NCBI GenBank assembly: GCA_965655095.1
Contig: OZ296648.1
Location: 27,404,001-27,468,000, forward strand
DNA from: Haplodiscus bocki
Lineage: Eukaryota
DNA length: 64,000 nucleotides
Direction: 5' to 3'
The first letter of the stretch is position 1. Each line of letters starts with the position of its first letter. Both the position numbers and the translations under genes were made by a program. Shown here piece after piece: positions 1 through 22,400 of this stretch. The notes beneath the pieces are model-generated. The model was given only the letters and a program-made list of their open reading frames with translations. It was not told the origin of the DNA and ran no database searches.

Positions 1-2305
1 GTGCCGTGAAACTTCAAACAGCGACCAATTTCTTTCAAATACCTTTCCGGGTCAGTGAATTGCAAGTTTTTTCCTTTCTTTTTGGTTCAAAAATCACCTG
101 TAGTGAAAAAAACTCAAGATGGTCCCTCATGGAGGTTTTTGATTTTCTTTGTCATATTAGCAAAGCAAAGGCCTCTATAATTAACAATTTTGGAGTTCCT
201 CCGTGTATGCCTAACCTTCTAGTTTTTCTCAAGATCTCTCTGTGCTTAGAAATAGCCAGCTAGTTGGAAACTTGTTAAGGAAAATGAAAGTGGAAAATTT
301 CGAAACTAGTTTGTCCTAGCCTACAATAAAACCTTCATAACTATCTGAGTTATACCATCAAAGAGTGGAAAAGTTCTCCGAGACTGCATGTTGGGTACAG
401 TTTTTTGCTATGTATGTAACTGAAAAAAAACATTCGTAAAGCAAAAAGACAAAAGTTGCGAAAAAATGCTGTTTTCAGCAAAAAAAAACTTCCTTCTCAA
501 AACCCAAAAACTTCAGTTTTTTCAAAAAAATGGTATCGATTTTCCAATTCATTTGCTGGTAAAACCTTTATCAAGTCGAAGGTGAAAAGGTGATTTGAGG
601 TGAAAAGGGAGCGAAAAGTCGGCGAATATTGAAAAAAAGTTTTCACAATTCGGTAACCGATAGAGCAGTTTCGGGTAATAGCATAAAAGTTTTTTGGTCC
701 CCTGATAAAATCTTGGCAAGAATGGTTAGATAATAACTGAAATTTTTGCTTCAAAGGTATTTAGAAGGCAATCCACAAAGCAAAAAAGTGATTTTTGTTT
801 CCAAGAGAAGACGGTCAGTGAGAGCAATAGCAATATTGAGGCACTTTTTGCAGCGATGAGTTTCGAAAACGTATGGTCAGAGTAGGATAGCATATATTCT
901 CATTGTCGATACCTGCTAACTGTGTTTTTTCCTGGCTTTGGCTTGAGTCTTCCTACTATCCTTGATTGCTCATTGTGAAAAAAAGGGATCATTCTCAAAA
1001 AGTTGGTGAATTGCTAGGTCAAAAAGAAGCGGTCAAGTGACGTTCGATTTGAAATTTCATCAACTGCTTCAATCAACGAGCTTGGCGTCACTGGAAGTGG
1101 CATGTAAGAACGAATGGACCAAAAACCTGCTTCTTAACGGAAGAAATTCAATTACTGAAACTTTTTGAAGATTTTATTGCTGGCTGCAGTAGCAGTGCGA
1201 AATCTTAGTTACTGCATCTGGTAACATAGGCACCAAACGTAATATGAGCCGCTTCGGTTACACCGCTGTGTGCAGCAACCCAAGATTTTTGAGCGTTATT
1301 ACACAGTGGTTGCAACAACTGCGACTGTTTATCGGGTCACTGCCACCGTCTCTGCGATACTGCAAGTGAAAAGGTTAATGGTGATAGTAGTAAAAGTAGT
1401 GGTAATAATAGTAGTAGTAATAGCAGCAGCGGAAAATCTTTTGGGCTAGCCAAAATGATTTCACCCCGGAAGAGTGTTGTATTTTTCCTTGTCAAAATGT
1501 ATTGTCCAGATCTGCTCCTGTGGAAGCTTTGGAATACCTGTGGTGAAAAATTTTCAAGTTTCAGAAAAATTCGACGTTCGTTAGAGATGAGGATTTCATT
1601 TCGTCTGTGCTAACTGTACCAGTTACGAGCGCTTTAGCTTGAGTTTGAGGATGGCTTTGGCTGAATTTCAAACTTAAACAAAAATTTCGAACTTGTTCAG
1701 TGCAGTGCTTCATGAGTTTTTATCCTACCTGATGCAACTGCAGTCAAAACGTTTATTTGGAGAGCAATCGAACGGAATATCTGTGGAAGATCTGTATGAT
1801 CACTAACTTTAGCAGCATTGGGCTGACTCTTGATTACTAAGCGATCTACTGAGTAATAAAGTTTCGAAAGTAAGAAAGTCAACATCTTGTGACCAATTTA
1901 ACTGATTACGTAGTCAAAAAATGTTTTGGAAGGGCACATGGCAAAAAGATCAAAAATGAGCTATTCAGTGAGCCTTGAAACTCCAGACAGCGACCAATTT
2001 CTGTCAAAAACATTTCAGGGTCAGTGAATTGCAAGTTTTTTCCTTTGTTTTTGGTTCAGAAATCACCTGTAGGGAAAAAAACTCAAGATCAACTCTCATG
2101 GAGATTTTTGATTTTCTTTGCCATAATAGCAAAGCAAAGGCCTCTAAAATTAACATTTTTGGAGTTCCTCCGTGTATGCCTACCCTTCTAGCTTTTCTCA
2201 AGATCTCTCTGTGCTTAGAAATAGCCAGCTAGTTGGAAACTTGACGTGGAAAACGAAAGTAGAATATTTCGAAACTAGTTTGTCCTAGCCTACAATAAAA
2301 CCTTC

Positions 2306-2497
2306 TGTTGTGATCTTTAATACTCGACCGATAACCAGAGATAGGTAACCTCGAAGGAAACAATTACTTGCAAAGATTCAACTCACCTTATATGTATTTA
2401 TATATATTACTGGCACGAACATGTCACCGAAAACAAAAACAAACAACACTTTATATGTGATCAACCGTATCAACTAATAATAGATATAGTCACCACA
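2306..2497 (-). repeat. 3' LTR of gypsy element (LTR1)
   Basis: TGTTG...CCACA termini. Preceded on the minus strand by the PPT AAAAGAAAGAGGGCGAG (2498-2514). ATTAAA poly(A)-type signal 10 nt from the LTR end. Confidence 0.95.
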
Positions 2498-5400
2498 CTC
2501 GCCCTCTTTCTTTTGTCTTGTACGCTCGCTTCGTCGTAGTGGACGGTCAGGAATGTTTGATTGGCATGAATGCGTCTTAGCCTCGAACGGCGAAGAAGGC
2601 AACGGTTGAATACGCTCAATCTGGCTGGTATTCGGAAGTTGCAAGGTTTCTGATTCATCGATTGTCGAAAGGCTACTAGGCCCCGGAACGTCAACAGCTC
2701 TCTTCGTGACATCCGGTACTGAAGAGTCAGCATCATCAGGTACCAGTACGTCCTTCCCAGACCCTGATCTTCCATCTGTACTCTCAGCAGTAGTTCCTCT
2801 CGCGACATATTTCGTATTCACAGTATCCACGGTGTTCTTGTCCGTATATGCCACTACAGCATGGTGAGGTGACAATACTTTGACAACTCTAGCTGGTTGT
2901 ACCAACGGATCGTCCTTAGAAGTCTTGTTGAAGTTCTTCACGTATATCGGCTCGCCAGCTCTCATCCAGGCGGGCGTCAATGTAGGGCTCAAACGAGTAG
3001 TCATCTGTTCTTTCTGCAGATCGAGTGATGATCTCCTGCTGAATCCAAAGAATCGATTATGAGGTGACTCGAAACCTATAGCACGACTTCCTAATGAACG
3101 AATGTTCATCAATGCTGCTAGTAACTCTTCATCCCATAATCCAATCGGCTTGCTAGACTGTTTTAGACGTAGCTGCACAGTTCTCCAAATGATACCATTG
3201 ACACGCTCACATTGACCATTTCCGGCTGGGTTGTACGGGGTTGTTCGAGTCTTCCGGACGTTCCACCGTTCCAGAAAAGATCTGAAGTCGTGACTCTCGA
3301 ATACACTACCGCGGTCAGAGTGCACTGATTCAGGTGGACCGAATAAGATGAACAACTGGTTTAACACTTTGATCGTATTAGCCGTAGTTGCTTCTTTCAT
3401 AGCAAAGGCAAAAGGGAATCGTGAGAATTCGTCGACGACCGTCAAGAAATGACAGTTTCCACCTTTCAATGGCTTCTTAGGGCCGACAAAATCGATGGAA
3501 ATCCTTTCCCATGGAGTAGACGACGTCACTAGATGATTTACCGGTGGACGGTGAAATCGTGGCTTCAGCTCTAAACACACTTGGCACTTCTCAATGTGTT
3601 CTTTCACCTTTGACTGTAAACCTGGAATATAAGCAATCCGCTGGATGAACCTCACTGTTCGGGCAATCCCAGGATGACCCATCTTATCATGAACTTGGGA
3701 TAAAATATAGTCAATGTTTCCCGAAATAAATGGTTTCTCTAAGTCTGCATCGGCATAGGCGCATACACGGCTCATGGCATCCGCAACGGTATTCAACCTT
3801 CCTGCTCGATATTGTATATCAAAAGTATATTCCGATAAAGCAATCCTCCAGCGGCAGAGTTTGCTGTTCTTGATAGAGGACTTTGGCCTGCTATCGAAGA
3901 GGTATGAAACTCCCTGCTGGTCTGTAATAATTGTAAATTTCGACCCCAGAAGATTTTGCCTGCATTTCTGTGTGCACCAGACTATAGCGTATGCCTCCTT
4001 CTTGATGGCAGACCAATGCTTCTCTTGGTCGGATAGTTTGTGAGATACAAACGCAACAGGCCTACCCTCCTGGGAGAGAACTCCTCCGAGTGCTGTACCA
4101 GAAGCATCGGTTTCCAAGATGAACGGTTTTTGTCTATCCGGTATCCAGAGGATCGCTTTCGCAACTGCCTTCTTGATGTCATCTATGCAATCAAGAGCGT
4201 CTTTCTGCAACGGCAACGGCCATCCCTTTTGGCAATAATAGAGGTTCTGCAAATTTCGAAAACTTTGGAATCCACTTCGAATAATAGACACTAAGGCCGA
4301 CAAACCTTTCTAGTTCCTTCATGGTCGAAGGGGTTGGAAAATTTAGCAATGGCTCCCAGCGCGAACTGTCGGGACTGACCGTGCCCTGTGAAAGTGGTGT
4401 CCTAGAAACTTTAGGTCCTGTGTATTGAATTTGCACTTGGCCTTGTTCAGCACCAAGCCGAACTCTTTCGCTCTTGCTATGAACGCTTGTAAATTAGTGT
4501 CGTGCTCGGCTTTCGTCGTGCCTCCAACGACCACGTCATCGATGTCAGCTACAACACCGACCAAACCATCGATTATTCTGTCGATGGTTCTTTGGAAAGC
4601 AGGAACTCCATTCGTAACTCCAAACGCAAGGCGCGTAAACTGGTAAAGTTTCCCATTAGCTTCGAATGCCGTTAATGGCTGCTCCGCCTTCCGCAAACGC
4701 AACTGGTGGTGTGCGGATTTCAAATCAATGTATGAGTACCACTTCCAATTGCTAACCCTTGAAAGCAACTCGTCTATTACAGGAATCGGATAACCATCCG
4801 GGATAGTAAACCGATTTATAGTTGAATCGTAATCAATGCAAAGTCTCTTCTTGTGGTTAGCAGTCGTGCTAATAACCACCTGTGAGCGCCAAGGGGACTG
4901 GGATTCTTCAATAATCCCGCTTTCAGCAACTTCGATATCTCGTCTGCAATAAACAGCTTGTCTGACTCCGTCCTGAATCTGGAAGGGCAACGGACAGGAA
5001 CTGCGTCCTCCGTCAAAGTAATAATCGGGAATGGGTCAATTTTCACGAAACCAGCTGTCTCATCAGAAGACGAGTCACTACATTGACTAGCCACAATCAG
5101 AGGCGGTGCCAACCCTCCATAGTTTATCGTAAGTGACTGAATTTTCGCCAGGGCTGAGGACCAAAGGATAGCTGAGTCGCATAGCTGCTCGGCGACCAAT
5201 ACCACTTCGGAAAACGTAGTTTCCTCGACACTCATGCGAACCTTCGCTCTCTCAATGATCGCGAGTCCATTGTTCGACACTGATCTAACTTGGGATCCCT
5301 GTACCGGCTTGTATGGTATCTGCTGCTCCTTGGCAAATTTCTTGTCAACCACAGAGATGTCACTGCCGCAATCAAGCAACCATGGCTTTTGAGTACCCTT

Positions 5401-6273
5401 GATTAACACGTTCACGAATCTGCGTTCCCGCCGTTTGAAGGATAAACCCGCCACAACGTGTGAATCGTCGGATTGTCCAGCTACAGCAGCAACGTTCTTT
5501 GTAGACATGCATACAGCTTTTAGGTGACCCACACGCCCACACTTGTGGCATTTTCTTTCCTTTGCGGGACAATCAGCTTTGCCATGCAAGGTAGACGATC
5601 CGCACCAGTGACAACGACGTGTGCCACCAGATGATCCTTCCTTCTTAGCGAACTTGGATAAACCCGGTCGGTGTTTGTTGGCAGCTACAACAACTACCTC
5701 CACAGGTCCACTGGATTGCTGGGCGGCTTCCTCCACTTCCGCTGCCGAAACTGCATCGTCCAATGTAAATGCTTGTCCTTTCTGATTAGCTGCTGCGAAT
5801 CCTTTGCAAACGGCTCGTTTGGTTGTGTCTGTTTGCAGTCCTTGGCAAAAGGCGTCGCGAAGGGCCTCGTCGGAAAATGCGTTTGGAAAGTTGCAGAATT
5901 TCGCAATTTGTCGTAATTCGCTGAGAAAGTCATTCAGCGACTGGTTAGATTTCTGCTTTGTAGAATAAAGTTTCATTCTCTCGGATAAAATATTTCTGCC
6001 AGCAGAGAACTTCGATGTAACAAACTCCACGGCACCTGAATATTCGGTAATCCAAGCGTCTGTCTGCGCTTGAGTCAGGTCCGGCCATGTAACTTCGTTG
6101 TAAAACTTGGCTGCTTTGTTGCCTGCACATAGCAAGAACAAGTCCAGCGTGTCGTTGTCATTGGGCTTCGTAACTTTGATATATCGCTTGAATTGAGATA
6201 ACCAAAGATTGTAAGATTCCAAGTCGCCACCGTCGAATGTTGGAGCTTGGAGAGAAAATTTCGCCGACATCAT
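2474..6273 (-). pseudogene. Frameshifted gag-pol polyprotein, copy 1 (gag with two Cys/His knuckles, aspartic protease, RT, RNase H, integrase)
   Basis: Gag CHWCG...HGKADCPAKERKCHKCGRVGHLKAVC; protease WLLDCGSDIS; RT SPWRS, RLCIDY, IDLKSAHHQ, RLAFGVTNGVPAFQR, with DIDD in place of YxDD; RNase H ETDAS...ADAMSR; integrase H-H-C-C plus SIDF/SDRG/CERVN. Frameshifts near 4925, 4392 and 4238 split it into ORFs 4816-6273, 4343-4990, 4191-4436 and 2474-4303. Confidence 0.93.
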
Positions 6274-6279
6274 GAAAAC

Positions 6280-6293
6280 GTTCGTGCCAGTAA
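6280..6293 (-). promoter_or_regulatory. Primer-binding site complementary to the element's own LTR (also at 10270-10283)
   Basis: Minus strand reads LTR...CAACA-GT-TTACTGGCACGAAC. The exact complement lies in the LTR at 6397-6410 (also 2407-2420; one mismatch at 10387-10400). Confidence 0.8.
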
Positions 6294-6295
6294 AC

Positions 6296-6487
6296 TGTTG
6301 TGATCTTTATTACTCGAACGATAACCAGAGATAGGTAACCTCGAAGGAAACAATTACTTGCAAAGATTCAACTCACCATATATGTATTTATATATATTAC
6401 TGGCACGAACATGTCACCGAAAACAAAAACAAACAACACTTTATATGTGATCAACCGTATCAACTAATAATAGATATAGTCACCACA
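6296..6487 (-). repeat. Shared middle LTR (LTR2), recombinant of LTR1 and LTR3
   Basis: Left part matches LTR3 at 3 diagnostic sites; right part matches LTR1 at 5 diagnostic sites. Confidence 0.95.
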
Positions 6488-9400
6488 CTCGCCCTCTTTC
6501 TTTTGTCTTGTACGCTCGCTTCGTCGTAGTGGACGGTCAGGAATGTTTGATTGGCATGAATGCGTCTTAGCCTCGAACGGCGAAGAAGGCAACGGTTGAA
6601 TACGCTCAATCTGGCTGGTATTCGGAAGTTGCAAGGTTTCTGATTCATCGATTGTCGAAAGGCTACTAGGCCCCGGAACGTCAACAGCTCTCTTCGTGAC
6701 ATCCGGTACTGAAGAGTCAGCATCATCAGGTACCAGTACGTCCTTCCCAGACCCTGATCTTCCATCTGTACTCTCAGCAGTAGTTCCTCTCGCGACATAT
6801 TTCGTATTCACAGTATCCACGGTGTTCTTGTCCGTATATGCCACTACAGCATGGTGAGGTGACAATACTTTGACAACTCTAGCTGGTTGTACCAACGGAT
6901 CGTCCTTAGAAGTCTTGTTGAAGTTCTTCACGTATATCGGCTCGCCAGCTCTCATCCAGGCGGGCGTCAATGTAGGGCTCAAACGAGTAGTCATCTGTTC
7001 TTTCTGCAGATCGAGTGATGATCTCCTGCTGAATCCAAAGAATCGATTATGAGGTGACTCGAAACCTATAGCACGACTTCCTAATGAACGAATGTTCATC
7101 AATGCTGCTAGTAACTCTTCATCCCATAATCCAATCGGCTTGCTAGACTGTTTTAGACGTAGCTGCACAGTTCTCCAAATGATACCATTGACACGCTCAC
7201 ATTGACCATTTCCGGCTGGGTTGTACGGGGTTGTTCGAGTCTTCCGGACGTTCCACCGTTCCAGAAAAGATCTGAAGTCGTGACTCTCGAATACACTACC
7301 GCGGTCAGAGTGCACTGATTCAGGTGGACCGAATAAGATGAACAACTGGTTTAACACTTTGATCGTATTAGCCGTAGTTGCTTCTTTCATAGCAAAGGCA
7401 AAAGGGAATCGTGAGAATTCGTCGACGACCGTCAAGAAATGACAGTTTCCACCTTTCAATGGCTTCTTAGGGCCGACAAAATCGATGGAAATCCTTTCCC
7501 ATGGAGTAGACGACGTCACTAGATGATTTACCGGTGGACGGTGAAATCGTGGCTTCAGCTCTAAACACACTTGGCACTTCTCAATGTGTTCTTTCACCTT
7601 TGACTGTAAACCTGGAATATAAGCAATCCGCTGGATGAACCTCACTGTTCGGGCAATCCCAGGATGACCCATCTTATCATGAACTTGGGATAAAATATAG
7701 TCAATGTTTCCCGAAATAAATGGTTTCTCTAAGTCTGCATCGGCATAGGCGCATACACGGCTCATGGCATCCGCAACGGTATTCAACCTTCCTGCTCGAT
7801 ATTGTATATCAAAAGTATATTCCGATAAAGCAATCCTCCAGCGGCAGAGTTTGCTGTTCTTGATAGAGGACTTTGGCCTGCTATCGAAGAGGTATGAAAC
7901 TCCCTGCTGGTCTGTAATAATTGTAAATTTCGACCCCAGAAGATTTTGCCTGCATTTCTGTGTGCACCAGACTATAGCGTATGCCTCCTTCTTGATGGCA
8001 GACCAATGCTTCTCTTGGTCGGATAGTTTGTGAGATACAAACGCAACAGGCCTACCCTCCTGGGAGAGAACTCCTCCGAGTGCTGTACCAGAAGCATCGG
8101 TTTCCAAGATGAACGGTTTTTGTCTATCCGGTATCCAGAGGATCGCTTTCGCAACTGCCTTCTTGATGTCATCTATGCAATCAAGAGCGTCTTTCTGCAA
8201 CGGCAACGGCCATCCCTTTTGGCAATAATAGAGGTTCTGCAAATTTCGAAAACTTTGGAATCCACTTCGAATAATAGACACTAAGGCCGACAAACCTTTC
8301 TAGTTCCTTCATGGTCGAAGGGGTTGGAAAATTTAGCAATGGCTCCCAGCGCGAACTGTCGGGACTGACCGTGCCCTGTGAAAGTGGTGTCCTAGAAACT
8401 TTAGGTCCTGTGTATTGAATTTGCACTTGGCCTTGTTCAGCACCAAGCCGAACTCTTTCGCTCTTGCTATGAACGCTTGTAAATTAGTGTCGTGCTCGGC
8501 TTTCGTCGTGCCTCCAACGACCACGTCATCGATGTCAGCTACAACACCGACCAAACCATCGATTATTCTGTCGATGGTTCTTTGGAAAGCAGGAACTCCA
8601 TTCGTAACTCCAAACGCAAGGCGCGTAAACTGGTAAAGTTTCCCATTAGCTTCGAATGCCGTTAATGGCTGCTCCGCCTTCCGCAAACGCAACTGGTGGT
8701 GTGCGGATTTCAAATCAATGTATGAGTACCACTTCCAATTGCTAACCCTTGAAAGCAACTCGTCTATTACAGGAATCGGATAACCATCCGGGATAGTAAA
8801 CCGATTTATAGTTGAATCGTAATCAATGCAAAGTCTCTTCTTGTGGTTAGCAGTCGTGCTAATAACCACCTGTGAGCGCCAAGGGGACTGGGATTCTTCA
8901 ATAATCCCGCTTTCAGCAACTTCGATATCTCGTCTGCAATAAACAGCTTGTCTGACTCCGTCCTGAATCTGGAAGGGCAACGGACAGGAACTGCGTCCTC
9001 CGTCAAAGTAATAATCGGGAATGGGTCAATTTTCACGAAACCAGCTGTCTCATCAGAAGACGAGTCACTACATTGACTAGCCACAATCAGAGGCGGTGCC
9101 AACCCTCCATAGTTTATCGTAAGTGACTGAATTTTCGCCAGGGCTGAGGACCAAAGGATAGCTGAGTCGCATAGCTGCTCGGCGACCAATACCACTTCGG
9201 AAAACGTAGTTTCCTCGACACTCATGCGAACCTTCGCTCTCTCAATGATCGCGAGTCCATTGTTCGACACTGATCTAACTTGGGATCCCTGTACCGGCTT
9301 GTATGGTATCTGCTGCTCCTTGGCAAATTTCTTGTCAACCACAGAGATGTCACTGCCGCAATCAAGCAACCATGGCTTTTGAGTACCCTTGATTAACACG

Positions 9401-10263
9401 TTCACGAATCTGCGTTCCCGCCGTTTGAAGGATAAACCCGCCACAACGTGTGAATCGTCGGATTGTCCAGCTACAGCAGCAACGTTCTTTGTAGACATGC
9501 ATACAGCTTTTAGGTGACCCACACGCCCACACTTGTGGCATTTTCTTTCCTTTGCGGGACAATCAGCTTTGCCATGCAAGGTAGACGATCCGCACCAGTG
9601 ACAACGACGTGTGCCACCAGATGATCCTTCCTTCTTAGCGAACTTGGATAAACCCGGTCGGTGTTTGTTGGCAGCTACAACAACTACCTCCACAGGTCCA
9701 CTGGATTGCTGGGCGGCTTCCTCCACTTCCGCTGCCGAAACTGCATCGTCCAATGTAAATGCTTGTCCTTTCTGATTAGCTGCTGCGAATCCTTTGCAAA
9801 CGGCTCGTTTGGTTGTGTCTGTTTGCAGTCCTTGGCAAAAGGCGTCGCGAAGGGCCTCGTCGGAAAATGCGTTTGGAAAGTTGCAGAATTTCGCAATTTG
9901 TCGTAATTCGCTGAGAAAGTCATTCAGCGACTGGTTAGATTTCTGCTTTGTAGAATAAAGTTTCATTCTCTCGGATAAAATATTTCTGCCAGCAGAGAAC
10001 TTCGATGTAACAAACTCCACGGCACCTGAATATTCGGTAATCCAAGCGTCTGTCTGCGCTTGAGTCAGGTCCGGCCATGTAACTTCGTTGTAAAACTTGG
10101 CTGCTTTGTTGCCTGCACATAGCAAGAACAAGTCCAGCGTGTCGTTGTCATTGGGCTTCGTAACTTTGATATATCGCTTGAATTGAGATAACCAAAGATT
10201 GTAAGATTCCAAGTCGCCACCGTCGAATGTTGGAGCTTGGAGAGAAAATTTCGCCGACATCAT
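6464..10263 (-). pseudogene. Frameshifted gag-pol polyprotein, copy 2 (identical translations to copy 1)
   Basis: ORFs 8806-10263, 8333-8980, 8181-8426 and 6464-8293 are exact +3990 translations of copy 1, with the same frameshifts and DIDD motif. Confidence 0.93.
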
Positions 10264-10285
10264 GAAAACGTTCGTGCCAGTAAAC

Positions 10286-10477
10286 TGTTGTGATCTTTAT
10301 TACTCGAACGATAACCAGAGATAGGTAACCTCGAAGGAAACAATTACTTGCAAAGATTCAACTCACCATATATGTATTTATATATATTACTGGCACGAGC
10401 ATGTCACTGAAAACAAAAACAAACGACACTTTATATATGATCAACCGTATCAACTAATAACAGATATAGTCACCACA
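10286..10477 (-). repeat. 5' LTR of gypsy element (LTR3)
   Basis: TGTTG...CCACA termini followed by the CCTTC TSD. 8 substitutions relative to LTR1 over 192 bp. Confidence 0.95.
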
Positions 10478-13400
10478 CCTTCATAACTATCTGAATTATA
10501 CCATCAAAGAGTGAAAAAGTTCTCCGAGACTGCATGTTGGGTAAAATTTTTTGCTAAGTATGTAATTGAAAAAAAAACGTTCGGAAAGCAAAAAGACAAA
10601 AGTTGCGAAAAAATGCCGTTTCCAGCAAAAAACTTCCTTCTCAAAACCCAAAAACTTCAAATTTTTCAAAAAAAGGCATCGTTTTCTAAATCCATTTGCT
10701 GGTAAAATCATTGTCAAATCCAGGTTGAAAAGGTGATTTGAGGTGAAAAAGGAGCGAAAAATCGGCAAAATTTGAAAAAAAAATTCTCACAATTCGGTAA
10801 CTGATAGCAGTTTCGATAATAGCATAAAAACTTTTTGGTCCCCTGACAAAATCTTCGCAAGAACGGTTGGAGAATAACAGAAGTTTTTGGTTCAAAGGTT
10901 TTGAAAACAATCCGCAAAGCAAAAAACTGATTTTTGGTTCCAGGAGAAAAGAATAGGTGAGAGGAATAGCAATATTGAAGCACTTTTTGCAGCGATGAGT
11001 TTCGAAAACATATGATCGGAGTAGGATAGCATATATTCTCATTGTCGATGCTTACTGACTGGTTTTTTCCCGGCTTTGGCTAGAGTCTTCCTACTATCCT
11101 TGATTGCTCATTGTGAAAAAAAGGGGTCATTCTCAACAAGTTGGTGAATTGCTAGGTCAAAAAGAAGCGGTCAAGTGACGTTCGATTTGAAATTTCATCA
11201 ACTGCTTCAATCAACGAGCTTGGCGTCACTGGAAGTGGGATGGAGGAGCGAATGGACCAAAATTCTGCATCTTAACGGAAAAATTTCAACTACTGAAACT
11301 TATTGAAGGTTTTATTGCTGGCGGCAGTAGCAGTGCGAAATCTTAGTTACTGCATCTGGTAATATAGGCACCAAACGTAATTTGAGCCGCTTCGGTTACA
11401 CCGCTGTGTGCAGCAACCTAAAGCTTTCTGAGCGTTATTACACAGTGGTTGCAACAACTGCGACTGTTTATCGGGTCACTGCCACCGTCTCTGCGATACT
11501 GCAAGTGAAAAGGTAAATGGTGATAATAGTACTAGTAGTGGTAGTAATAGTAGTAGTAATAGCAGCAGCGGAAGGTCTTCTGGGCTACCCCAAGTGATTT
11601 CACCCCGGAAGGGTGTCGTATTTTTCTTTGTCAAAATGAATTGTCCAGATCTGCTCCTGTGGAAACTTTGGAGTACCTGTGGTGAAAAATTTTCAAGTTT
11701 CAGAAACATTCAACGTTCGTTAGAGATGAGGTTTTCGTTTCGTCTGTGCTAACTGTACCAGATACGAGCGCTTTAGCTTGAGTTTGAGGTTGGCTTTGGC
11801 TGAAATTCAAACTTGAACAAAAATCTCGAACTTGTTCAGTGCAGTGCTTCATGAGTTTTTATCCCATCTGATGCAACTGAAGTCAAAATGCTTGTTTGGA
11901 GAGCAATCGAACGGAATATCTGTGGAAGATCTGTACGATCACTAACTTTAGCAGCATCGGGCTGACTCTTGATTACTAAGCAATCTACTGAGTGAGAAAC
12001 TTTCGAAAGTAAGAAAATCAACATCTTGTAACCATTTTAACTGATTACGTAGTCAAAAAAGTGTTTTGGAAGGCCACATGGCAAAAAGATCAAAAATAGC
12101 TCTTCAGTGTGCCTTGAAACTCCACACAACGACCAATTTCTTTCAAATACCTTTCAGGGTCAGTGAATTATAAGTTTTTTCCCTTGTTTTTGGTTCAAAA
12201 ATCATCTGTAGGGAAAAAAACCCATTATGATCCCTCATGGAGATTTTTGATTTTCTTTGTCATAATAGCAAAGCAAAGGCCTCCATAATTAACATTTTTG
12301 GAGTTCCTTCGTGTATGCCTACCCTTCTAGTTTTTCTCAAGATCTCTCTGTGCTTAGAAATAGCCAGCTAGTTGGAAACTTGTTAAGGAAAACGAAAGTG
12401 GAAAATTTCGAAACTAGTTTGTCCTAGCCTACAATAAAACCTTTATAACTATCTGAGTTATACCATCAAAGAGTGGAAAAGTTCTCCGAGACTGCATGTT
12501 GGGTACAATTTTTTGCTATGTATGTAATTGAAAAAAAAAACATTCGTAAAGCAAAAAACAAAAGTTGCGAAAAAAATGCCGTTTTCAGCAAAAGATTTTC
12601 TCACAACCCAAAATCTTCAATTTTTTCAAAAAAATAGCATCGATTTGCCAATTCACTTGCTGGTAAAATCTTTGTCAAATCGAGGGTGAAAAGGTGATTT
12701 GAGGTGAAACGGGAGGGAAAAATCGGCGAATTTTGAAAAAAAAGTTCTCACAATTCGGTAACTGATAGAGCAGTTTCGATAATAGCATAAAAGTTTTTTG
12801 GTCCCCTGATAAAATCTTCGCAAGAATGTTTAGAGAATAACAGAAGTTTTTGGTTCAAAGTTGTTTTGAACAATCCGGAAAGCAAAAAAGTGATTTTTGT
12901 TTCCAGGAGAAAACGGTCAGTGAGAGGAATAGCAATATTGAATTACTTTTTGCAGCGCTGAGTTTCGAAAACGTATGGTCAGAGTAGGATGGCATATATT
13001 CTCATTGTCGATACCTGCTAACTGAGTTTATTCCTGGCTTTGGCTAGAGTCTTCCTACTATCATTGATTGCTCATTGTGAAAAAAAGGGGTCATTCTCAA
13101 CAAGCTGGTGATTTGCCAGGTCAAAAAGAAGCGGTCAAGTGACGTTCGATTTTAAATTCCATCAACTGCTTCAATCAACGAGCTTGGCGTCACTGGAAGT
13201 GGGATGGAGGAGCGAATGGACCAAAATTCTGCATCTTAACGGAAAAATTTCAACTACTGAAACTTATTGAAGATTTTATTGCTGGCGGCAGTAGCAGTGC
13301 GAAATCTTAGTTACTGCATCTGGTAATATAGGCACCAAACGTAATTTGAGCCGCTTCGGTTACACCGCTGTGTGCAGCAACCTAAAGCTTTCTGAGCGTT

Positions 13401-16400
13401 ATTACACAGTGGTTGCAACAACTGCGACTGTTTATCGGGTCACTGCCACCGTCTCTGCGATACTGCAAGTGAAAAGGTAAATGGTGATAATAGTACTAGT
13501 AGTGGTAGTAATAGTAGTAGTAATAGCAGCAGCGGAAGGTCTTCTGGGCTAGCCCAAGTGATTTCACCCCGGAAGAGTGTCGTATTTTTCTTTGTCAAAA
13601 TGAATTGTCCAGATCTGCTCCTGTGGAAACTTTGGAGTACCTGTGGTGAAAAATTTTCAAGTTTCAGAAACATTCAACGTTCGTTAGAGATAAGATTTTC
13701 GTTTCGTCTGTGCTAACTGTACCAGTTACGAGCGCTTTAGCTTGAGTTTGAGGATGGCTTTGGCTGAAATTCAAACTTGAACAAAAATCTCGAACTTGTT
13801 CAGTGCAGTGCTTCATGAGTTTTTATCCCATCTGATGCAACTGAAGTCAAAATGCTTGTTTGGAGAGCAATCGAACGGAATATCTGTGGAAGATCTGTAC
13901 GATCACTAACTTTAGCAGCATTGGGCTGACTCTTGATTACTAAGCGATATACTGAGTGAGAAAGTTTCGAAAGTAAGAAAATCAACATCTTGTGACCAAT
14001 TTAACTGATTACGTAGTCAAAAAAGTGTTTTGGAAGGCCACATGGCAAAAAGATCAAAAATAGCTCTTCAGTGTGCCTTGAAACTCCACACAACGACCAA
14101 TTTCTTTCAAATACCTTTCAGGGTCAGTGAATTATAAGTTTTTTCCCTTGTTTTTGGTTCAAAAATCATCTGTAGGGAAAAAAACCCAATATGATCCCTC
14201 ATGGAGATTTTTGATTTTCTTTGTCATAATAGCAAAGCAAAGGCCTCTATAATTAACATTTTTGGAGTTCCTTCGTGTATGCCTACCCTCTTCTAGTTTT
14301 TTTCAAGATCTCTCTGTGCTTAGAAATAGCCAGCTAGTTGGAAACTTGTTAAGGAAAACGAAAGTGGAAAATTTCGAAACTAGTTTGTCCTAGCCTACAA
14401 TAAAACCTTTATAACTATCTGAGTTATACCATCAAAGAGTGGAAAAGTTCTCCGAGACTGCATGTTGGGTACAATTTTTTGCTATGTATGTAATTGAAAA
14501 AAAAACATTCGTAAAGCAAAAAACAAAAGTTGCGAAAAAAATGCCGTTTTCAGCAAAAGATTTTCTTCTCACAACCCAAAATCTTCAATTTTTTCAAAAA
14601 AATAGCATCGATTTGCCAATTCACTTGCTGGTAAAATCTTTGTCAAATCGAGGGTGAAAAGGTGATTTGAGGTGAAACGGGAGGGAAAAATCGGCGAATT
14701 TTGAAAAAAAAGTTCTCACAATTCGGTAACTGATAGAGCAGTTTCGATAATAGCATAAAAGTTTTTTGGTCCCCTGATAAAATCTTCGCAAGAATGTTTA
14801 GAGAATAACAGAAGTTTTTGGTTCAAAGTTATTTTGAACAATCCGCAAAGCAAAAAAGTGATTTTTGTTTCCAGGAGAAAACGGTCAGTGAGAGGAATAG
14901 CAATATTGAAGCACTTTTTGCAGCGCTGAGTTTCGAAAACGTATGGTCAGAGTAGGATAGCATATATTCTCATTGTCGATACCTGCTAACTGAGTTTTTT
15001 CCTGGCTTTGGCTAGAGTCTTCCTACTATCATTGATTGCTCATTGTGAAAAAAAGGGGTCATTCTCAACAAGCTGGTGATTTGCCAGGTCAAAAAGAAGC
15101 GGTCAAGTGACGTTCGATTTTAAATTCCATCAACTGCTTCAATCAACGAGCTTGGCGTCACTGGAAGTGGGATGGAGGAGCGAATGGACCAAAATCCTGC
15201 ATCTTAACGGAAAAATTTCAACTACTGAAACTTATTGAAGATTTTATTGCTGGCGGCAGTAGCAGTGCGAAATCTTAGTTACTGCATCTGGTAATATAGG
15301 CACCAAACGTAATTTGAGCCGCTTCGGTTACACCGCTGTGTGCAGCAACTTAAAGCTTTCTGAGCGTTATTACACAGTGGTTGCAACAACTGCGACTGTT
15401 TATCGGGTCACTGCCACCGTCTCTGCGATACTGCAAGTGAAAAGGTAAATGGTGATAATAGTACTAGTAGTGGTAGTAATAGTAGTAGTAATAGCAGCAG
15501 CGGAAGGTCTTCTGGGCTAGCCCAAGTGATTTCACCCCGGAAGAGTGTCGTATTTTTCTTTGTCAAAATGAATTGTCCAGATCTGCTCCTGTGGAAACTT
15601 TGGAGTACCTGTGGTGAAAAATTTTCAAGTTTCAGAAACATTCAACGTTCGTTAGAGATAAGATTTTCGTTTCGTCTGTGCTAACTGTACCAGTTACGAG
15701 CGCTTTAGCTTGAGTTTGAGGATGGCTTTGGCTGAAATTCAAACTTGAACAAAAATCTCGAACTTGTTCAGTGCAGTGCTTCATGAGTTTTTATCCCATC
15801 TGATGCAACTGAAGTCAAAATGCTTGTTTGGAGAGCAATCGAACGGAATATCTGTGGAAGATCTGTACGATCACTAACTTTATCAACATCGGGCTGACTC
15901 TTGATTACTAAGCAATCTACTGAGTGAGAAACTTTCGAAAGTAAGAAAATCAACATCTTGTAACCATTTTAACTGATTACGTAGTCAAAAAAGTGTTTTG
16001 GAAGGCCACATGGCAAAAAGATCAAAAATAGCTCTTCAGTGTGCCTTGAAACTCCACACAACGACCAATTTCTTTCAAATACCTTTCAGGGTCAGTGAAT
16101 TATAAGTTTTTTCCCTTGTTTTTGGTTCAAAAATCATCTGTAGGGAAAAAAACCCAATATGATCCCTCATGGAGATTTTTGATTTTCTTTGTCATAATAG
16201 CAAAGCAAAGGCCTCTATAATTAACATTTTTGGAGTTCCTTCGTGTATGCCTACCCTTCTAGTTTTTCTCAAGATCTCTCTGTGCTTAGAAATAGCCAGC
16301 TAGTTGGAAACTTGTTAAGGAAAACGAAAGTGGAAAATTTCGAAACTAGTTTGTCCTAGCCTACAATAAAACCTTTATAACTATCTGAGTTATACCATCA

Positions 16401-19400
16401 AAGAGTGGAAAAGTTCTCCGAGACTGCATGTTGGGTACAATTTTTTGCTATGTATGTAATTGAAAAAAAAACATTCGTAAAGCAAAAAGACAAAAGTTGC
16501 GAAAAAAATGCCGTTTTCAGCAAAAGATTTTCTTCTCACAACCCAAAATCTTCAATTTTTTCAAAAAAATAGCATCGATTTGCCAATTCACTTGCTGGTA
16601 AAATCTTTGTCAAATCGAGGGTGAAAAGGTGATTTGAGGTGAAACGGGAGGGAAAAATCGGCGAATTTTGAAAAAAAAGTTCTCACAATTCGGTAACTGA
16701 TAGAGCAGTTTCGATAATAGCATAAAAGTTTTTTGGTCCCCTGATAAAATATTCGCAAGAATGTTTAGAGAATAACAGAAGTTTTTGGTTCAAAGTTATT
16801 TTGAACAATCCGCAAAGCAAAAAAGTGATTTTTGTTTCCAGGAGAAAACGGTCAGTGAGAGGAATAGCAATATTGAAGCACTTTTTGCAGCGCTGAGTTT
16901 CGAAAACGTATGGTCAGAGTAGGATGGCATATATTCTCATTGTCGATACCTGCTAACTGAGTTTATTCCTGGCTTTGGCTAGAGTCTTCCTACTATCATT
17001 GATTGCTCATTGTGAAAAAAAGGGGTCATTCTCAACAAGCTGGTGATTTGCCAGGTCAAAAAGAAGCGGTCAAGTGACGTTCGATTTTAAATTCCATCAA
17101 CTGCTTCAATCAACGAGCTTGGCGTCACTGGAAGTGGGATGGAGGAGCGAATGGACCAAAATTCTGCATCTTAACGGAAAAATTTCAACTACTGAAACTT
17201 ATTGAAGATTTTATTGCTGGCGGCAGTAGCAGTGCGAAATCTTAGTTACTGCATCTGGTAATATAGGCACCAAACGTAATTTGAGCCGCTTCGGTTACAC
17301 CGCTGTGTGCAGCAACCTAAAGCTTTCTGAGCGTTATTACACAGTGGTTGCAACAACTGCGACTGTTTATCGGGTCACTGCCACCGTCTCTGCGATACTG
17401 CAAGTGAAAAGGTAAATGGTGATAATAGTACTAGTAGTGGTAGTAATAGTAGTAGTAATAGCAGCAGCGGAAGGTCTTCTGGGCTAGCCCCAGTGATTTC
17501 ACCCCGGAAGAGTGTCGTATTTTTCTTTGTCAAAATGAATTGTCCAGATCTGCTCCTGTGGAAACTTTGGAGTACCTGTGGTGAAAAATTTTCAAGTTTC
17601 AGAAACATTCAACGTTCGTTAGAGATAAGATTTTCGTTTCGTCTGTGCTAACTGTACCAGTTACGAGCGCTTTAGCTTGAGTTTGAGGATGGCTTTGGCT
17701 GAAATTCAAACTTGAACAAAAATCTCGAACTTGTTCAGTGCAGTGCTTCATGAGTTTTTATCCCATCTGATGCAACTGAAGTCAAAATGCTTGTTTGGAG
17801 AGCAATCGAACGGAATATCTGTGGAAGATCTGTACGATCACTAACTTTAGCAACATCGGGCTGACTCTTGATTACTAAGCAATCTACTGAGTGAGAAACT
17901 TTCGAAAGTAAGAAAATCAACATCTTGTAACCATTTTAACTGATTACGTAGTCAAAAAAGTGTTTTGGAAGGCCACATGGCAAAAAGATCAAAAATAGCT
18001 CTTCAGTGTGCCTTGAAACTCCACACAACGACCAATTTCTTTCAAATACCTTTCAGGGTCAGTGAATTATAAGTTTTTTCCCTTGTTTTTGGTTCAAAAA
18101 TCATCTGTAGGGAAAAAAACCCAATATGATCCCTCATGGAGATTTTTGATTTTCTTTGTCATAATAGCAAAGCAAAGGCCTCTATAATTAACATTTTTGG
18201 AGTTCCTTCGTGTATGCCTACCCTTCTAGTTTTTCTCAAGATCTCTCTGTGCTTAGAAATAGCCAGCTAGTTGGAAACTTGTTAAGGAAAATGAAAGTGG
18301 AAAATTTCGAAACTAGTTTGTCCTAGCCTACAATAAAACCTTTATAACTATCTGAGTTATACCATCGAAGAGTGGAAAAGTTCTCCGAGACTGCATGTTG
18401 GGTACAATTTTTTGCTATGTATGTAATTGAAAAAAAAACATTCGTAAAGCAAAAAGACAAAAGTTGCGAAAAAAATGCCGTTTTCAGCAAAAGATTTTCT
18501 TCTCACAACCCAAAATCTTCAATTTTTTCAAAAAAATAGCATCGATTTGCCAATTCACTTGCTGGTAAAATCTTTGTCAAATCGAGGGTGAAAAGGTGAT
18601 TTGAGGTGAAACGGGAGGGAAAAATCGGCGAATTTTGAAAAAAAAGTTCTCACAATTCGGTAACTGATAGAGCAGTTTCGATAATAGCATAAAAGTTTTT
18701 TGGTCCCCTGATAAAATCTTCGCAAGAATGTTTAGAGAATAACAGAAGTTTTTGGTTCAAAGTTATTTTGAACAATCCGCAAAGCAAAAAAGTGATTTTT
18801 GTTTCCAGGAGAAAACGGTCAGTGAGAGGAATAGCAATATTGAAGCACTTTTTGCAGCGCTGAGTTTCGAAAACGTATGGTCAGAGTAGGATGGCATATA
18901 TTCTCATTGTCGATACCTGCTAACTGAGTTTTTTCCTGGCTTTGGCTAGAGTCTTCCTACTATCATTGATTGCTCATTGTGAAAAATAGGGGTCATTCTC
19001 AACAAGCTGGTGATTTGCTAGGTCAAAAAGAAGCGGTCAAGTGACGTTCGATTTGAAATTTCATCAACTGCTTCAATCAACGAGCTTGGCGTCACTGGAA
19101 GTGGGATGGAGGAGCGAATGGACCAAAATTCTGCATCTTAACGGAAAAATTTCAACTACTGAAACTTATTGAAGATTTTATTGCTGGCGGCAGTAGCAGT
19201 GCGAAATCTTAGTTACTTCATCTGGTAATATAGGCACCAAACGTAATTTGGGCCGCTTCGGTTACACCGCTGTGTGCAGCAACTTAAAGCTTTCTGAGCG
19301 TTATTACACAGTGGTTGCAACAACTGCGACTGTTTATCGGGTCACTGCCACCGTCTCTGCGATACTGCAAGTGAAAAGGTAAATGGTGATAATAGTACTA

Positions 19401-22400
19401 GTAGTGGTAGTAATAGTAGTAGTAATAGCAGCAGCGGAAGGTCTTCTGGGCTAGCCCAAGTGATTTCACCCCGGAAGAGTGTCGTATTTTTCTTTGTCAA
19501 AATGAATTGTCCAGATCTGCTCCTGTGGAAACTTTGGAGTACCTGTGGTGAAAAATTTTCAAGTTTCAGAAACATTCAACGTTCGTTAGAGATGAGGTTT
19601 TCGTTTCGTCTGTGCTAACTGTACCAGTTACGAGCGCTTTAGCTTGAGTTTGAGGATGGCTTTGGCTGAAATTCAAACTTGAACAAAAATTTCGAACCTG
19701 TTCAGTGCAGTGCTTCATGAGTTTTTATCCCATCTGATGCAACTGAAGTCAAAATGCTTGTTTGGAGATCAATCGAACGGAATATCTGTGGAAGATCTGT
19801 ACGATCACTAACTTTAGCAGCATTGGGCGGACTCTTGATTACTAAGCGATCTACTGAGTGAGAAAGTTTCGAAAGTAAGAAAATCAACATCTTGTAACCA
19901 TTTTAACTGATTACGTAGTCAAAAAATTGTTTTGGAAGGCCACATGGCAAAAAGGTCAAAAATAGCTCTTCAGTGTGCCTTGAAACTCCACACAACGACC
20001 AATTTCTTTCAAATACCTTTCAGGGTCAGTGAATTATAAGTTTTTTCCCTTGTTTTTGGTTCAAAAATCATCTGTAGGGAAAAAAACCCAATATGATCCC
20101 TCATGGAGATTTTTGATTTTCTTTGTCATAATAGCAAAGCAAAGGCCTCTATAATTAACATTTTTGGAGTTCCTTCGTGTATGCCTACCCTTCTAGTTTT
20201 TCTCAAGATCTCTCTGTGCTTAGAAATAGCCAGCTAGTTGGAAACTTGTTAAGGAAAACGAAAGTGGAAAATTTCGAAACTAGTTTGTCCTAGCCTACAA
20301 TAAAACCTTTATAACTATCTGAGTTATACCATCAAAGAGTGGAAAAGTTCTCCGAGACTGCATGTTGGGTACAATTTTTTGCTATGTATGTAATTGAAAA
20401 AAAAACATTCGTAAAGCAAAAAGACAAAAGTTGCGAAAAAAATATCGTTTTCAGCAAAAGATTTTCTTCTCAAAACCCAAAATCTTCAAATTTTTCAAAA
20501 AAACAGCATCGATTTGCCAATTCACTTGCTGGTAAAATCTTTGTCAAATCGAGGGTGAAAAGGTGATTTGAGGTGAAACGGGAGGGAAAAATCGGCGAAT
20601 TTTGAAAAAAAAGTTCTCACAATTCGGTAACTGATAGAGCAGTTTCGATAATAGCATAAAAGTTTTTTGGTCCCCTGATAAAATCTTCGCAAGAATGTTT
20701 AGAGAATAACAGAAGTTTTTGGTTCAAAGTTATTTTGAACAATCCGCAAAGCAAAAAAGTGATTTTTGTTTCCAGGAGAAAACGGTCAGTGAGAGGAATA
20801 GCAATATTGAAGCACTTTTTGCAGCGCTGAGTTTCGAAAACGTATGGTCAGAGTAGGATGGCATATATTCTCATTGTCGATACCTGCTAACTGAGTTTAT
20901 TCCTGGCTTTGGCTAGAGTCTTCCTACTATCATTGATTGCTCATTGTGAAAAATAGGGGTCATTCTCAACAAGCTGGTGATTTGCTAGGTCAAAAAGAAG
21001 CGGTCAAGTGACGTTCGATTTTAAATTCCATCAACTGCTTCAATCAACGAGCTTGGCGTCACTGGAAGTGGGATGGAGGAGCGAATGGACCAAAATCCTG
21101 CATCTTAACGGAAAAATTTCAACTACTGAAACTTATTGAAGATTTTATTGCTGGCGGCAGTAGCAGTGCGAAATCTTAGTTACTGCATCTGGTAATATAG
21201 GCACCAAACGTAATTTGAGCCGCTTCGGTTACACCGCTGTGTGCAGCAACTTAAAGCTTTCTGAGCGTTATTACACAGTGGTTGCAACAACTGCGACTGT
21301 TTATCGGGTCACTGCCACCGTCTCTGCGATACTGCAAGTGAAAAGGTAAATGGTGATAATAGTACTAGTAGTGGTAGTAATAGTAGTAGTAATAGCAGCA
21401 GCGGAAGGTCTTCTGGGCTACCCCAAGTGATTTCACCCCGGAAGAGTGTCGTATTTTTCTTTGTCAAAATGAATTGTCCAGATCTGCTCCTGTGGAAACT
21501 TTGGAGTACCTGTGGTGAAAAATTTTCAAGTTTCAGAAAAATTCGACGTTCGTTAGAGATGAGGATTTCATTTCGTCTGTGCTAACTGTACCAGTTACGA
21601 GCGCTTTAGCTTGAGTTTGAGGATGGCTTTGGCTGAATTTCAAACTTAAACAAAAATTTCGAACTTGTTCAGTGCAGTGCTTCATGAGTTTTTATCCCAT
21701 CTGATGCAACTGAAGTCAAAATGCTTGTTTGGAGAGCAATCGAACGGAATATCTGTGGAAGATCTGTACGATCACTAACTTTAGCAGCATCGGGCTGACT
21801 CTTGATTACTAAGCAATCTACTGAGTGAGAAACTTTCGAAAGTAAGAAAATCAACATCTTGTAACCATTTTAACTGATTACGTAGTCAAAAAAGTGTTTT
21901 GGAAGGCCACATGGCAAAAAGATCAAAAATAGCTCTTCAGTGTGCCTTGAAACTCCACACAACGACCAATTTCTTTCAAATACCTTTCAGGGTCAGTGAA
22001 TTATAAGTTTTTTCCCTTGTTTTTGGTTCAAAAATCATCTGTAGGGAAAAAAACCCAATATGATCCCTCATGGAGATTTTTGATTTTCTTTGTCATAATA
22101 GCAAAGCAAAGGCCTCTATAATTAACATTTTTGGAGTTCCTTCGTGTATGCCTACCCTTCTAGTTTTCCTCAAGATCTCTCTGTGCTTAGAAATAGCCAG
22201 CTAGTTGGAAACTTGTTAAGGAAAATGAAAGTGGAAAATTTCGAAACTAGTTTGTCCTAGCCTACAATAAAACCTTTATAACTATCTGAGTTATACCATC
22301 AAAGAGTGGAAAAGTTCTCCGAGACTGCATGTTGGGTACAATGTTTTGCTATGTATGTAATTGAAAAAAAAAACATTCGTAAAGCAAAAAGACAAAAGTT

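What the first reader, a model, noticed from the sequence alone, without database searches (positions are those of the whole stretch)
6280..6445. Gypsy element appears to prime reverse transcription on its own RNA (Tf1-style self-priming) although it looks Mag-like, not chromoviral
Seen: on the element strand the LTR end CAACA is followed by a 2-nt spacer (GT) and TTACTGGCACGAAC. A perfect 14-nt complement, GTTCGTGCCAGTAA, lies inside the LTR (6397-6410) and extends to 16 nt with one G:U pair. It starts 33-35 nt downstream of a TATAAA (6440-6445, minus), at a CA initiator-like dinucleotide. TGG is 6 nt from the LTR, and I recognise no tRNA 3' end there. AATAAA sits only 10 nt from the LTR end, and the gag ATG is 22 nt after the LTR. 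Established: S. pombe Tf1 and related chromoviral elements use the first nucleotides of their own transcript, released by RNase H, as primer; a 2-nt LTR-PBS spacer is the usual integrase-processed overhang. Inference: the transcript's 5' end folds back onto the PBS and serves as primer. The gag (two knuckles, CPAK..C..C...GH...VC) is Mag-like and the integrase has no visible chromodomain, so this may be a separate, very compact (4.2 kb) self-priming animal lineage. Self-primed animal gypsy families may already be catalogued, so novelty must be checked.
Basis: partly seen in the sequence, partly recalled or inferred. Interest (0 to 1): 0.82.

Follow-up and report, generated by a model that had tools for sequence, protein, structure and literature searches.

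The report
Spliced leader inside a retrotransposon's self-primer
This jumping gene pairs its DNA-copying start site with its own RNA instead of a tRNA, and seven damaged copies in the genome preserve a mirror image of that RNA end with the host's spliced leader attached, so it likely primes its own copying with a leader-capped piece of its own message, predicted to be cut off by its own enzyme.

Summary
The primer site (6280-6293) pairs over 14 nt with the element's own LTR (6397-6410); no tRNA fits. Seven aberrant copies (3 of 19 LTR-primer-site junctions in this family, 4 of 51 in a sister family with a different primer site) carry, 2 nt after the LTR, an antisense copy of LTR sequence that starts at a U-rich CAG splice acceptor, followed by the host spliced leader: full length in six, 26 nt in one. 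The leader matches a published acoel leader and 5S-linked leader genes in this genome. These fossils mark both primer ends: leader plus 20 nt here, leader plus 10 nt in the sister family. All 16 relatives from metagenomes with two correctly oriented LTRs also pair with themselves, with different letters. The group is sister to a tRNA-Ser-primed family and has no chromodomain; no Tf1, Mag or Cigr reference could be placed in the tree. No RNA data were available. This scan noted self-priming in animal gypsy elements before, and a leader-matching primer site in a euglenid element. My ten paper searches found no report of a leader-containing primer.

The parts
2306..10477 (-). Tandem gypsy element, LTR-internal-LTR-internal-LTR (period 3990), inserted in a 1967-bp tandem repeat
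10478..10482 (-). 5-bp target-site duplication, outer 5' side (GAAGG)
2301..2305 (-). 5-bp target-site duplication, outer 3' side (GAAGG)
10286..10477 (-). 5' LTR (192 nt); splice acceptor present (AG at 10407-10408); one mismatch in the paired motif (10399)
6296..6487 (-). Middle LTR (the one in the finding); upstream part like the 3' LTR, downstream part like the 5' LTR
2306..2497 (-). 3' LTR
6488..6504 (-). Polypurine tract before the middle LTR
   Evidence: sequence
6440..6445 (-). TATAAA; too close to the acceptor to make the precursor that is trans-spliced (inferred); role unknown
6417..6438 (-). U-rich tract and 3' splice acceptor position used for spliced-leader addition; acceptor altered in this LTR at 6418
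6397..6416 (-). Element-encoded 20-nt body of the primer; 6397-6410 pairs with the primer site; cut inferred between 6397 and 6396
6377..6396 (-). Predicted small A/U hairpin directly after the inferred cut; weak on its own (11% of shuffles as good)
6294..6295 (-). 2-nt spacer between LTR end and primer site
6280..6293 (-). Primer-binding site, complementary to the element's own LTR (to 6278 with one G:U)
10270..10283 (-). Primer-binding site of the upstream copy
4816..6273 (-). gag (two zinc knuckles) and protease; frame leaves the polyprotein near the start of RT
4343..5035 (-). Reverse transcriptase core, in a second frame
2474..4309 (-). RNase H and integrase, in a third frame; no chromodomain match

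Best explanation
The element's primer site pairs with its own LTR rather than a tRNA, and aberrant genomic copies carry an antisense copy of the host spliced leader joined at an LTR splice acceptor, so the element likely primes reverse transcription with a leader-capped fragment of its own RNA, predicted to be cut free by its own RNase H. Steps: (1) inferred: transcription starts upstream of the acceptor, in U3 or by read-through. (2) Shown at DNA level by the fossils: the 32-nt leader is joined at the acceptor (6416). (3) Shown by complementarity and covariation: the RNA can fold back so that nt 7-20 after the acceptor pair with the site 2 nt past the LTR. (4) Inferred from Tf1: a cut after nt 20 gives a capped primer of about 52 nt (about 42 nt in the sister family); the cut also removes the leader from the template, so it never enters the LTR. 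(5) Inferred from Tf1 and Ty3: the primer stays on the minus strand and the first plus-strand product copies it to the cap. Normal copies come from a plus strand without that tail. In 7 of 70 junctions the tail was joined into the element and the product was integrated.
For: Seven fossils in two families. Each begins exactly at the primer-site start, switches from LTR sequence to leader exactly at the acceptor, and six run to the leader's first nucleotide with 0-1 mismatches in 32; the seventh has 26 nt of leader and then rejoins the LTR end. All seven rejoin at different places. Five have perfect 5-bp target duplications, one has 4 of 5, one lacks its 3' end. One fossil (L031) shares a private substitution with its own LTR, so it was copied from that element's RNA. 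The extra stretch equals the leader reported for the acoel S. roscoffensis (PMC9911081 methods passage) and the exon of a tandem array with a GTAAGT donor and linked 5S rRNA genes in this genome. Two family-A fossil junctions also stand in separately assembled contigs of public runs (one study, possibly the same source). In the sister family all 47 normal primer sites continue for 2 nt as the complement of the leader, not of the genomic LTR. Acceptor CAG in 30 of 35 and 41 of 41 LTRs. No tRNA: 43 of 45 genomic matches of the 14-mer lie in the element, and a tRNA-3'-end pattern gives 3 hits, none a tRNA; the same kind of pattern finds 268 tRNA-Ser matches for the neighbouring family. Across 14 families 163 of 168 pair cells are Watson-Crick, with 2-4 pair types at each of positions 3-12.
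Against: No RNA, cDNA or enzyme evidence: the cut, the enzyme and cis-priming are inferred. The fossils could also form if a plus strand ending in the primer site annealed to an uncut leader-capped RNA and ran to its cap, so they prove a leader-capped RNA and its pairing, not that it is the only primer. In family A only 14-16 of about 52 primer nucleotides pair, unlike the fully paired 11-mer of Tf1. No two-sided change lies inside the 14-nt core within family A; its departures (7 of 16 normal junctions, 1-2 positions each) are one-sided. The LTR of the finding has an altered acceptor and both internal copies are frame-broken, so this locus is not itself a working example. A TATAAA lies 24-29 nt before the acceptor in family A. 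The covariation table was anchored by best pairing, so it leans towards pairing; the independent controls are the shuffles and the non-reversed scan.
Confidence: 0.72

Rival explanations
1. One reading: a TATA-started, unspliced RNA beginning at about 6410-6415 supplies a short Tf1-like primer. Leader-capped RNAs serve as mRNA and enter the fossils only by mis-annealing of the plus strand.
For: TATAAA at 6440-6445 in family A; the normal primer site pairs over only 14-16 nt; a short primer would leave no distinctive fossil. In C. elegans Cer1 the leader goes onto a subgenomic RNA and not the genomic RNA (PMC3315495 passages).
Against: All 7 aberrant junctions carry the leader and none ends short of it or runs into U3. 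The sister family has no TATA-like box 25-35 nt before its motif, its pairing stops at the acceptor AG, and its normal primer site matches the leader for 2 further nt in 47 of 47.
Confidence: 0.12
2. The primer is the same leader-capped fragment, but it is made by a host nuclease, a small-RNA-guided cut or early 3'-end formation, or comes from a second RNA molecule, and not by the element's RNase H acting on the folded RNA.
For: The fossils fix the primer's ends but not the enzyme. The primer ends in AA in 14 of 14 families, often inside an AATAAA-like hexamer, which could reflect host processing.
Against: The end sits at a fixed place relative to the duplex in families whose sequences differ. 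RNase H cleavage at the duplex end is established for Tf1 (PMC7175516 passage).
Confidence: 0.12
3. A host tRNA, tRNA half or other small RNA primes the element, and the LTR complement is incidental.
For: TGG occurs 6 nt from the LTR; edited or intron-split RNAs would escape my pattern searches.
Against: (no host gene holds the complement; positive control); primer sites differ between families while self-pairing is kept; the fossils copy element RNA, not a tRNA.
Confidence: 0.03

Closest known systems
Tf1/Tf2 of Schizosaccharomyces pombe and the Tf1/sushi group (self-primed Ty3/gypsy chromoviruses)
   Same: Primer site next to the LTR complementary to the element's own RNA 5' region; no tRNA; the primer is copied into a single-stranded tail on the cDNA (PMC7175516, PMC5341516, PMC11042837: passages).
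   Different: The Tf1 primer is the first 11 transcribed nt, fully paired. Here the 5' end is made by trans-splicing and the primer is about 52 or 42 nt, most of it host leader and unpaired. No chromodomain; two-knuckle Gag in one ORF with pol; nearest tested neighbour is tRNA-Ser-primed.
Predicted self-priming plant lineages Tcn1 (gypsy) and TAR (copia)
   Same: Inferred from a complement of 10 nt or more between primer site and LTR (PMC6317226 passages).
   Different: Plants, other lineages; the passages I saw mention no splicing and no primer fossils.
Mag lineage, including Cigr-1 (listed under Mag in the supplement of PMC6238403)
   Same: Compact element, short LTRs, 5-bp target duplication, two zinc knuckles, no chromodomain, wide animal range. 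That Cigr-1 is about 4.2 kb with one ORF is recalled, not seen in a call.
   Different: Mag clades are tRNA-primed as I recall. No reference sequence was available, so membership is open.
C. elegans Cer1
   Same: A gypsy element whose RNA receives the host spliced leader (PMC3315495 passages).
   Different: Only a spliced subgenomic RNA is leader-capped; the genomic RNA is not, and priming is assigned to tRNA-Pro.
Ty3 plus-strand recycling
   Same: A first plus-strand product copies part of the primer and is displaced; a later one without it is transferred (PMC5371799 passages). This offers a route round the long primer tail.
   Different: tRNA-iMet primer; recycling is not shown for this element.

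Membership tests
Ty3/gypsy LTR retrotransposon | TG...CA LTRs, polypurine tract, target duplication, domain order PR-RT-RH-IN | tested here: met
Self-primed LTR elements (mechanism) | Primer site within 0-5 nt of the LTR, complementary over 10 nt or more to the LTR | tested here: met
   14 nt, 0 of 5000 shuffles; at least 12 of 14 pairs in 16 of 16 normal family-A junctions
Self-primed LTR elements (mechanism) | No host tRNA complementary to the primer site | tested here: met
   control
Self-primed LTR elements (mechanism) | Pairing kept through changes on both sides | tested here: met
   between families and L150 against L151/L165/L181; not inside the family-A core
Self-primed LTR elements (mechanism) | Primer released by the element's RNase H | not testable with these tools
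   inferred from Tf1
Tf1-type priming (strict) | Primer is the first ~11 transcribed nucleotides, fully paired | tested here: not met
   fossils show leader plus 20 nt or leader plus 10 nt
Tf1/sushi chromoviruses | Chromodomain or Tf2-type SH3 at the integrase end | tested here: not met
   no such Pfam match in the window, family A, family B or four metagenome polyproteins
Tf1/sushi chromoviruses | RT/RH groups with Tf1/sushi | tested here: inconclusive
   no Tf1 or sushi row available; group is sister to a tRNA-Ser family at 42% identity, 100/99; Ty3 RT scores 218 bits by phmmer, the tRNA-Ser family 298-340 bits by tblastn, different programs
Mag lineage | Two Gag zinc knuckles, no chromodomain, 5-bp target duplication (features recalled) | tested here: met
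Mag lineage | RT/RH groups with Mag, SURL, Gulliver or Cigr-1 references | not testable with these tools
   no reference sequences; supplements of PMC6238403 and PMC8556966 gave names only, three files not searched
Spliced-leader trans-splicing substrate | Host has leader RNA genes (exon, GT donor, array) | tested here: met
Spliced-leader trans-splicing substrate | Leader joined at a U-rich YAG acceptor in element RNA | tested here: met
   at DNA level in 7 fossils
Spliced-leader trans-splicing substrate | Junction seen in RNA reads | not testable with these tools
   no RNA run served

The most novel reading that the evidence does not exclude
A widespread non-chromoviral clade of animal gypsy elements evolved self-priming independently of Tf1, and in this acoel host it has handed the definition of its primer to the spliceosome: the host spliced leader forms most of a capped 42-52-nt primer, which frees the element from needing an exact transcription start and removes the leader from the template. 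The genome keeps direct DNA casts of that primer.
Probability: 0.6. Interest if true: 0.86.

Novelty: new variant of a known kind. Interest (0 to 1): 0.78.

Why it matters
Self-priming has been shown by experiment only in fission-yeast elements and is otherwise inferred from a short complement. Here the genome itself records both ends of the primer, in two families and seven separate events. It shows a new primer class, part host and part element, whose making depends on trans-splicing. It suggests how LTR elements cope with hosts that replace mRNA 5' ends: a cut behind the leader keeps it out of the LTR. It gives a general method: search for antisense leader or 5'-end copies after a 5' LTR to read a primer without bench work. 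It also implies that pipelines which demand a tRNA site misjudge a clade with relatives in insects, crustaceans, molluscs, cnidarians, flukes and rays.

Tried and rejected
No RNA holder listed; the four runs behave as DNA contigs, so nothing follows about expression. A leader-gene pattern with a canonical Sm site found nothing; the simpler donor pattern found the array. My first reading of the fossil boundary as an initiator-type start (notes 1-2) was dropped once the leader was identified. A genome-wide pattern for other leader-primer fossils gave 45 hits; of the 30 fetched only the six of families A and B had a matching LTR motif, one more (L242) was a chance 10-nt hit, and 15 were not fetched. 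Viral contigs gave one distant hit. A hairpin after the cut is visible in many families but beats 95% of shuffles in only 4 of 18 rows: weak. Pairing of the leader with the LTR end (12 nt in A and B) is nearly matched by non-acoel relatives (up to 10 Watson-Crick pairs), so it is not used. AATAAA near the LTR end is not conserved. In one search the automatic end-finder failed on the window stretch and mis-set L192 (5 nt; 12 nt with the right end), L128 and L131. A tblastn meant to place the frame breaks printed nothing; they are taken. Rfam has no family for the LTR or the leader gene. Cigr-1 membership could not be tested. The primary Tf1 papers PMC1563812 and PMC1369541 are not held.

Full report
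Locus. The finding lies in the middle LTR of an LTR-internal-LTR-internal-LTR tandem on the minus strand (2306-10477, period 3990, LTRs 192 nt), with one 5-bp target duplication at the outer ends, inside a 1967-bp tandem repeat. The two internal regions are identical and each is split over three frames: gag-protease, RT, RNase H-integrase. Other family copies hold frames of 1033 and 1096 aa across these places, and the sister family has one 1263-aa ORF, so the family plan is a single gag-pol ORF.

Observation. The primer site 6280-6293 is the perfect complement of 6397-6410; 0 of 5000 shuffles reach 14 nt, and the stretch folds with z -4.2. A search with the LTR and leader region gave 36 matches in the genome. 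Of 19 LTR-primer-site junctions in family A, 16 are normal: 9 pair at 14 of 14 positions, 6 at 13, 1 at 12. The AATAAA near the LTR end is absent from all 32 LTRs of other copies.

No tRNA. The 14-mer occurs 45 times in 1.5 Gb; 43 lie in the element and the other two hold no tRNA (control pattern 7 hits). A tRNA-3'-end pattern for the TGG reading gives 3 hits, none a tRNA (control 7). The same approach for the neighbouring family C finds 268 hits (control 0), and the one locus scanned holds tRNA-Ser genes.

The fossils. Three family-A copies (L031, L032, L033) read: 5' LTR, 2-nt spacer, the antisense of 20 LTR nucleotides, then about 32 nt foreign to the element, then internal sequence from positions 1608, 2682 and 3906. 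The foreign stretch is the antisense of the spliced leader reported for the acoel Symsagittifera roscoffensis (PMC9911081: methods passage and supplement legend seen, figure not visible). In this genome it has 1369 matches with at most one mismatch; 689 exact matches are followed by GT, and nearly all of the first 100 listed beyond a few scattered ones lie in a tandem array with a GTAAGT donor, a stem and linked 5S rRNA genes. The host is therefore likely an acoel. The switch from LTR to leader falls exactly at a U-rich tract and CAG, present in 30 of 35 family-A LTRs. L031 shares a private substitution between its LTR and its antisense copy.

Sister family B (62% RT identity, LTR 170 nt, 4276 bp) has an unrelated primer site that pairs over 12 nt with its own LTR and stops at the AG of its own acceptor (41 of 41 LTRs). 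Four of its 51 junctions are leader fossils with a 10-nt body. Three rejoin at 1282, 3421 and 2442 (inverted). The fourth (L283) has 26 nt of leader, returns to the LTR end and repeats the normal primer site. Six of the seven fossils end at the leader's first nucleotide with 0-1 mismatches in 32. Five have perfect target duplications, one has 4 of 5, and one has no 3' LTR in the 9.8 kb fetched. All 47 normal family-B sites continue for 2 nt as the complement of the leader and not of the genomic LTR; alone this is a 1-in-16 coincidence. Two family-A fossil junctions are also seen in contigs of public runs (one study, not independent of the assembly for certain).

Wider group. Protein relatives at 40-48% are named from moths, a damselfly, hemipterans, a copepod, a prawn, a spider, mussels, a snail, cnidarians, a fluke, a nematode and a ray; their LTRs were not examined. 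Of 80 metagenome loci (the best 80 of 528), 16 have two correctly oriented LTRs around the ORF, and all 16 have an 11-17-nt complement in at least one LTR. Of 14 put through shuffles, 13 were matched by at most 1 of 300; the fourteenth had a mis-set end. Eight tRNA-primed controls from this genome gave 4-7 nt, the chance level. A blind scan of all 80 loci hit 26, 20 of them at this kind of junction and the rest at unrelated inverted repeats, against 2 loci for the non-reversed control. Over 14 families 163 of 168 pair cells are Watson-Crick, positions 1-2 are always AA, and positions 3-12 show 2-4 pair types each (anchored by best pairing). In several relatives the pairing runs 4-7 nt past the nearest AG into genomic sequence, which fits a primer that begins at a transcription start; trans-splicing is shown only for A and B.

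Tree. On 408 RT-RH columns (57 rows; L129, L138, L191 and L204 dropped as too short) the 24 self-complementary rows lie on one side of a branch (98/93), with the 19 database proteins inside it, and join the tRNA-Ser family C at 100/99. The program warns that long branches meet, the root is a midpoint, and no Tf1, sushi, Mag or Cigr row was available. Independent origin from Tf1 is therefore likely (no chromodomain, tRNA-primed sister) but not shown.

Mechanism. Shown in DNA: a leader-capped element RNA existed, joined at the LTR acceptor; its first 52 (A) or 42 (B) nucleotides were copied in antisense from a point 2 nt past the LTR to the cap. Inferred: this fragment is the primer, cut at the end of the duplex, by RNase H as in Tf1 (PMC7175516, PMC5341516: passages); it stays on the minus strand and is copied, as about half of Tf1 cDNA keeps a primer copy (PMC11042837: passages); normal products avoid the tail, perhaps as in Ty3 recycling (PMC5371799: passages). 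The main rival keeps self-priming but uses a short TATA-started RNA and explains the fossils by mis-annealing to leader-capped mRNA.

Literature. Ten full-text searches listed no paper on a spliced-leader-containing primer or on self-priming in non-chromoviral animal gypsy elements; I saw listings and abstract openings for most hits. Passages read: PMC6317226, PMC6934838, PMC6238403 (plus supplement rows), PMC8556966 (supplement rows only; three files not searched), PMC3601003, PMC3670739, PMC3315495, PMC4558846 and those cited above. Butler 2001, Lin and Levin 1997 and Atwood-Moore 2006 were seen as titles only. Repbase, Dfam, GyDB and most subscription journals could not be searched, so clade-level self-priming may already be noted there. 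Earlier notes of this scan report self-priming in animal gypsy elements of other genomes, splice-built primers in BEL/Pao elements and a leader-matching primer site in a euglenid mini-element; they are unchecked AI notes, consulted after my reading was formed, and none was found for this genome.

Verdict. Self-priming about 0.95; a leader-capped fragment as the main primer about 0.84; the full model with the element's own RNase H 0.72. New variant of a known kind; interest 0.78.

Noticed in passing
G000:C9 from 72.47 Mb (L120, L121): Large tandem array of spliced-leader RNA genes alternating with 5S rRNA genes, unit 1.7-2.6 kb.
   Followed up: partly
L073, L074, L077, L080, L091 and other loci: Several hundred scattered leader copies head a few repeated families; some are followed by a shared stretch and a PHD-like Cys-rich ORF start, as in LINE ORF1 (recalled). 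They look like retroposed trans-spliced RNAs, some with a second captured leader-bearing fragment in front.
   Followed up: partly
window 6296-6487: The middle LTR matches the 3' LTR at five diagnostic sites down to 6409 and the 5' LTR at three sites from 6378 on. The switch brackets the inferred cut (6397/6396), as a reverse-transcribed LTR would; unequal crossing-over in that 31-nt interval fits too.
   Followed up: partly
window 6371-6377 (minus): A consensus 5' splice donor (GGTGAGT) sits 20 nt after the inferred cut in most family-A LTRs; role unknown.
   Followed up: no
LTR ends of families A and B against the leader: Leader nt 6-17 can pair over 12 nt with the LTR end plus spacer in both families; relatives from other hosts reach up to 10 Watson-Crick pairs, so it may be chance likeness to the integrase site.
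   Followed up: partly
L159:1-140 and L140:2850-3010: Two metagenome relatives have a TAG 12 nt before the primer end; L159 has a TACTAAC branch-point motif and a pyrimidine tract before it and its pairing stops at the AG: candidate second case of a splice-defined primer.
   Followed up: partly
G000:C1 26.32-26.52 Mb (L279-L282): Dense array of tRNA-Ser genes; their 3' end matches the primer site of gypsy families C and D.
   Followed up: partly
window 1-2304 and 10477-29388; 47135-64000: Two long tandem arrays (units about 1967 bp and 1327 bp); the element interrupts the first.
   Followed up: no
L260 (C5:43.374 Mb), L052, L164: Rearranged copies: a truncated-LTR/gag duplication, and two elements with a large inverted internal segment.
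   Followed up: partly
L122:540-620 (C2:125456337): The first ~25 nt of a family-A LTR are followed directly by a sense leader copy heading another repeat, 4 kb upstream of a full family-A element; probably an insertion into an LTR fragment.
   Followed up: no
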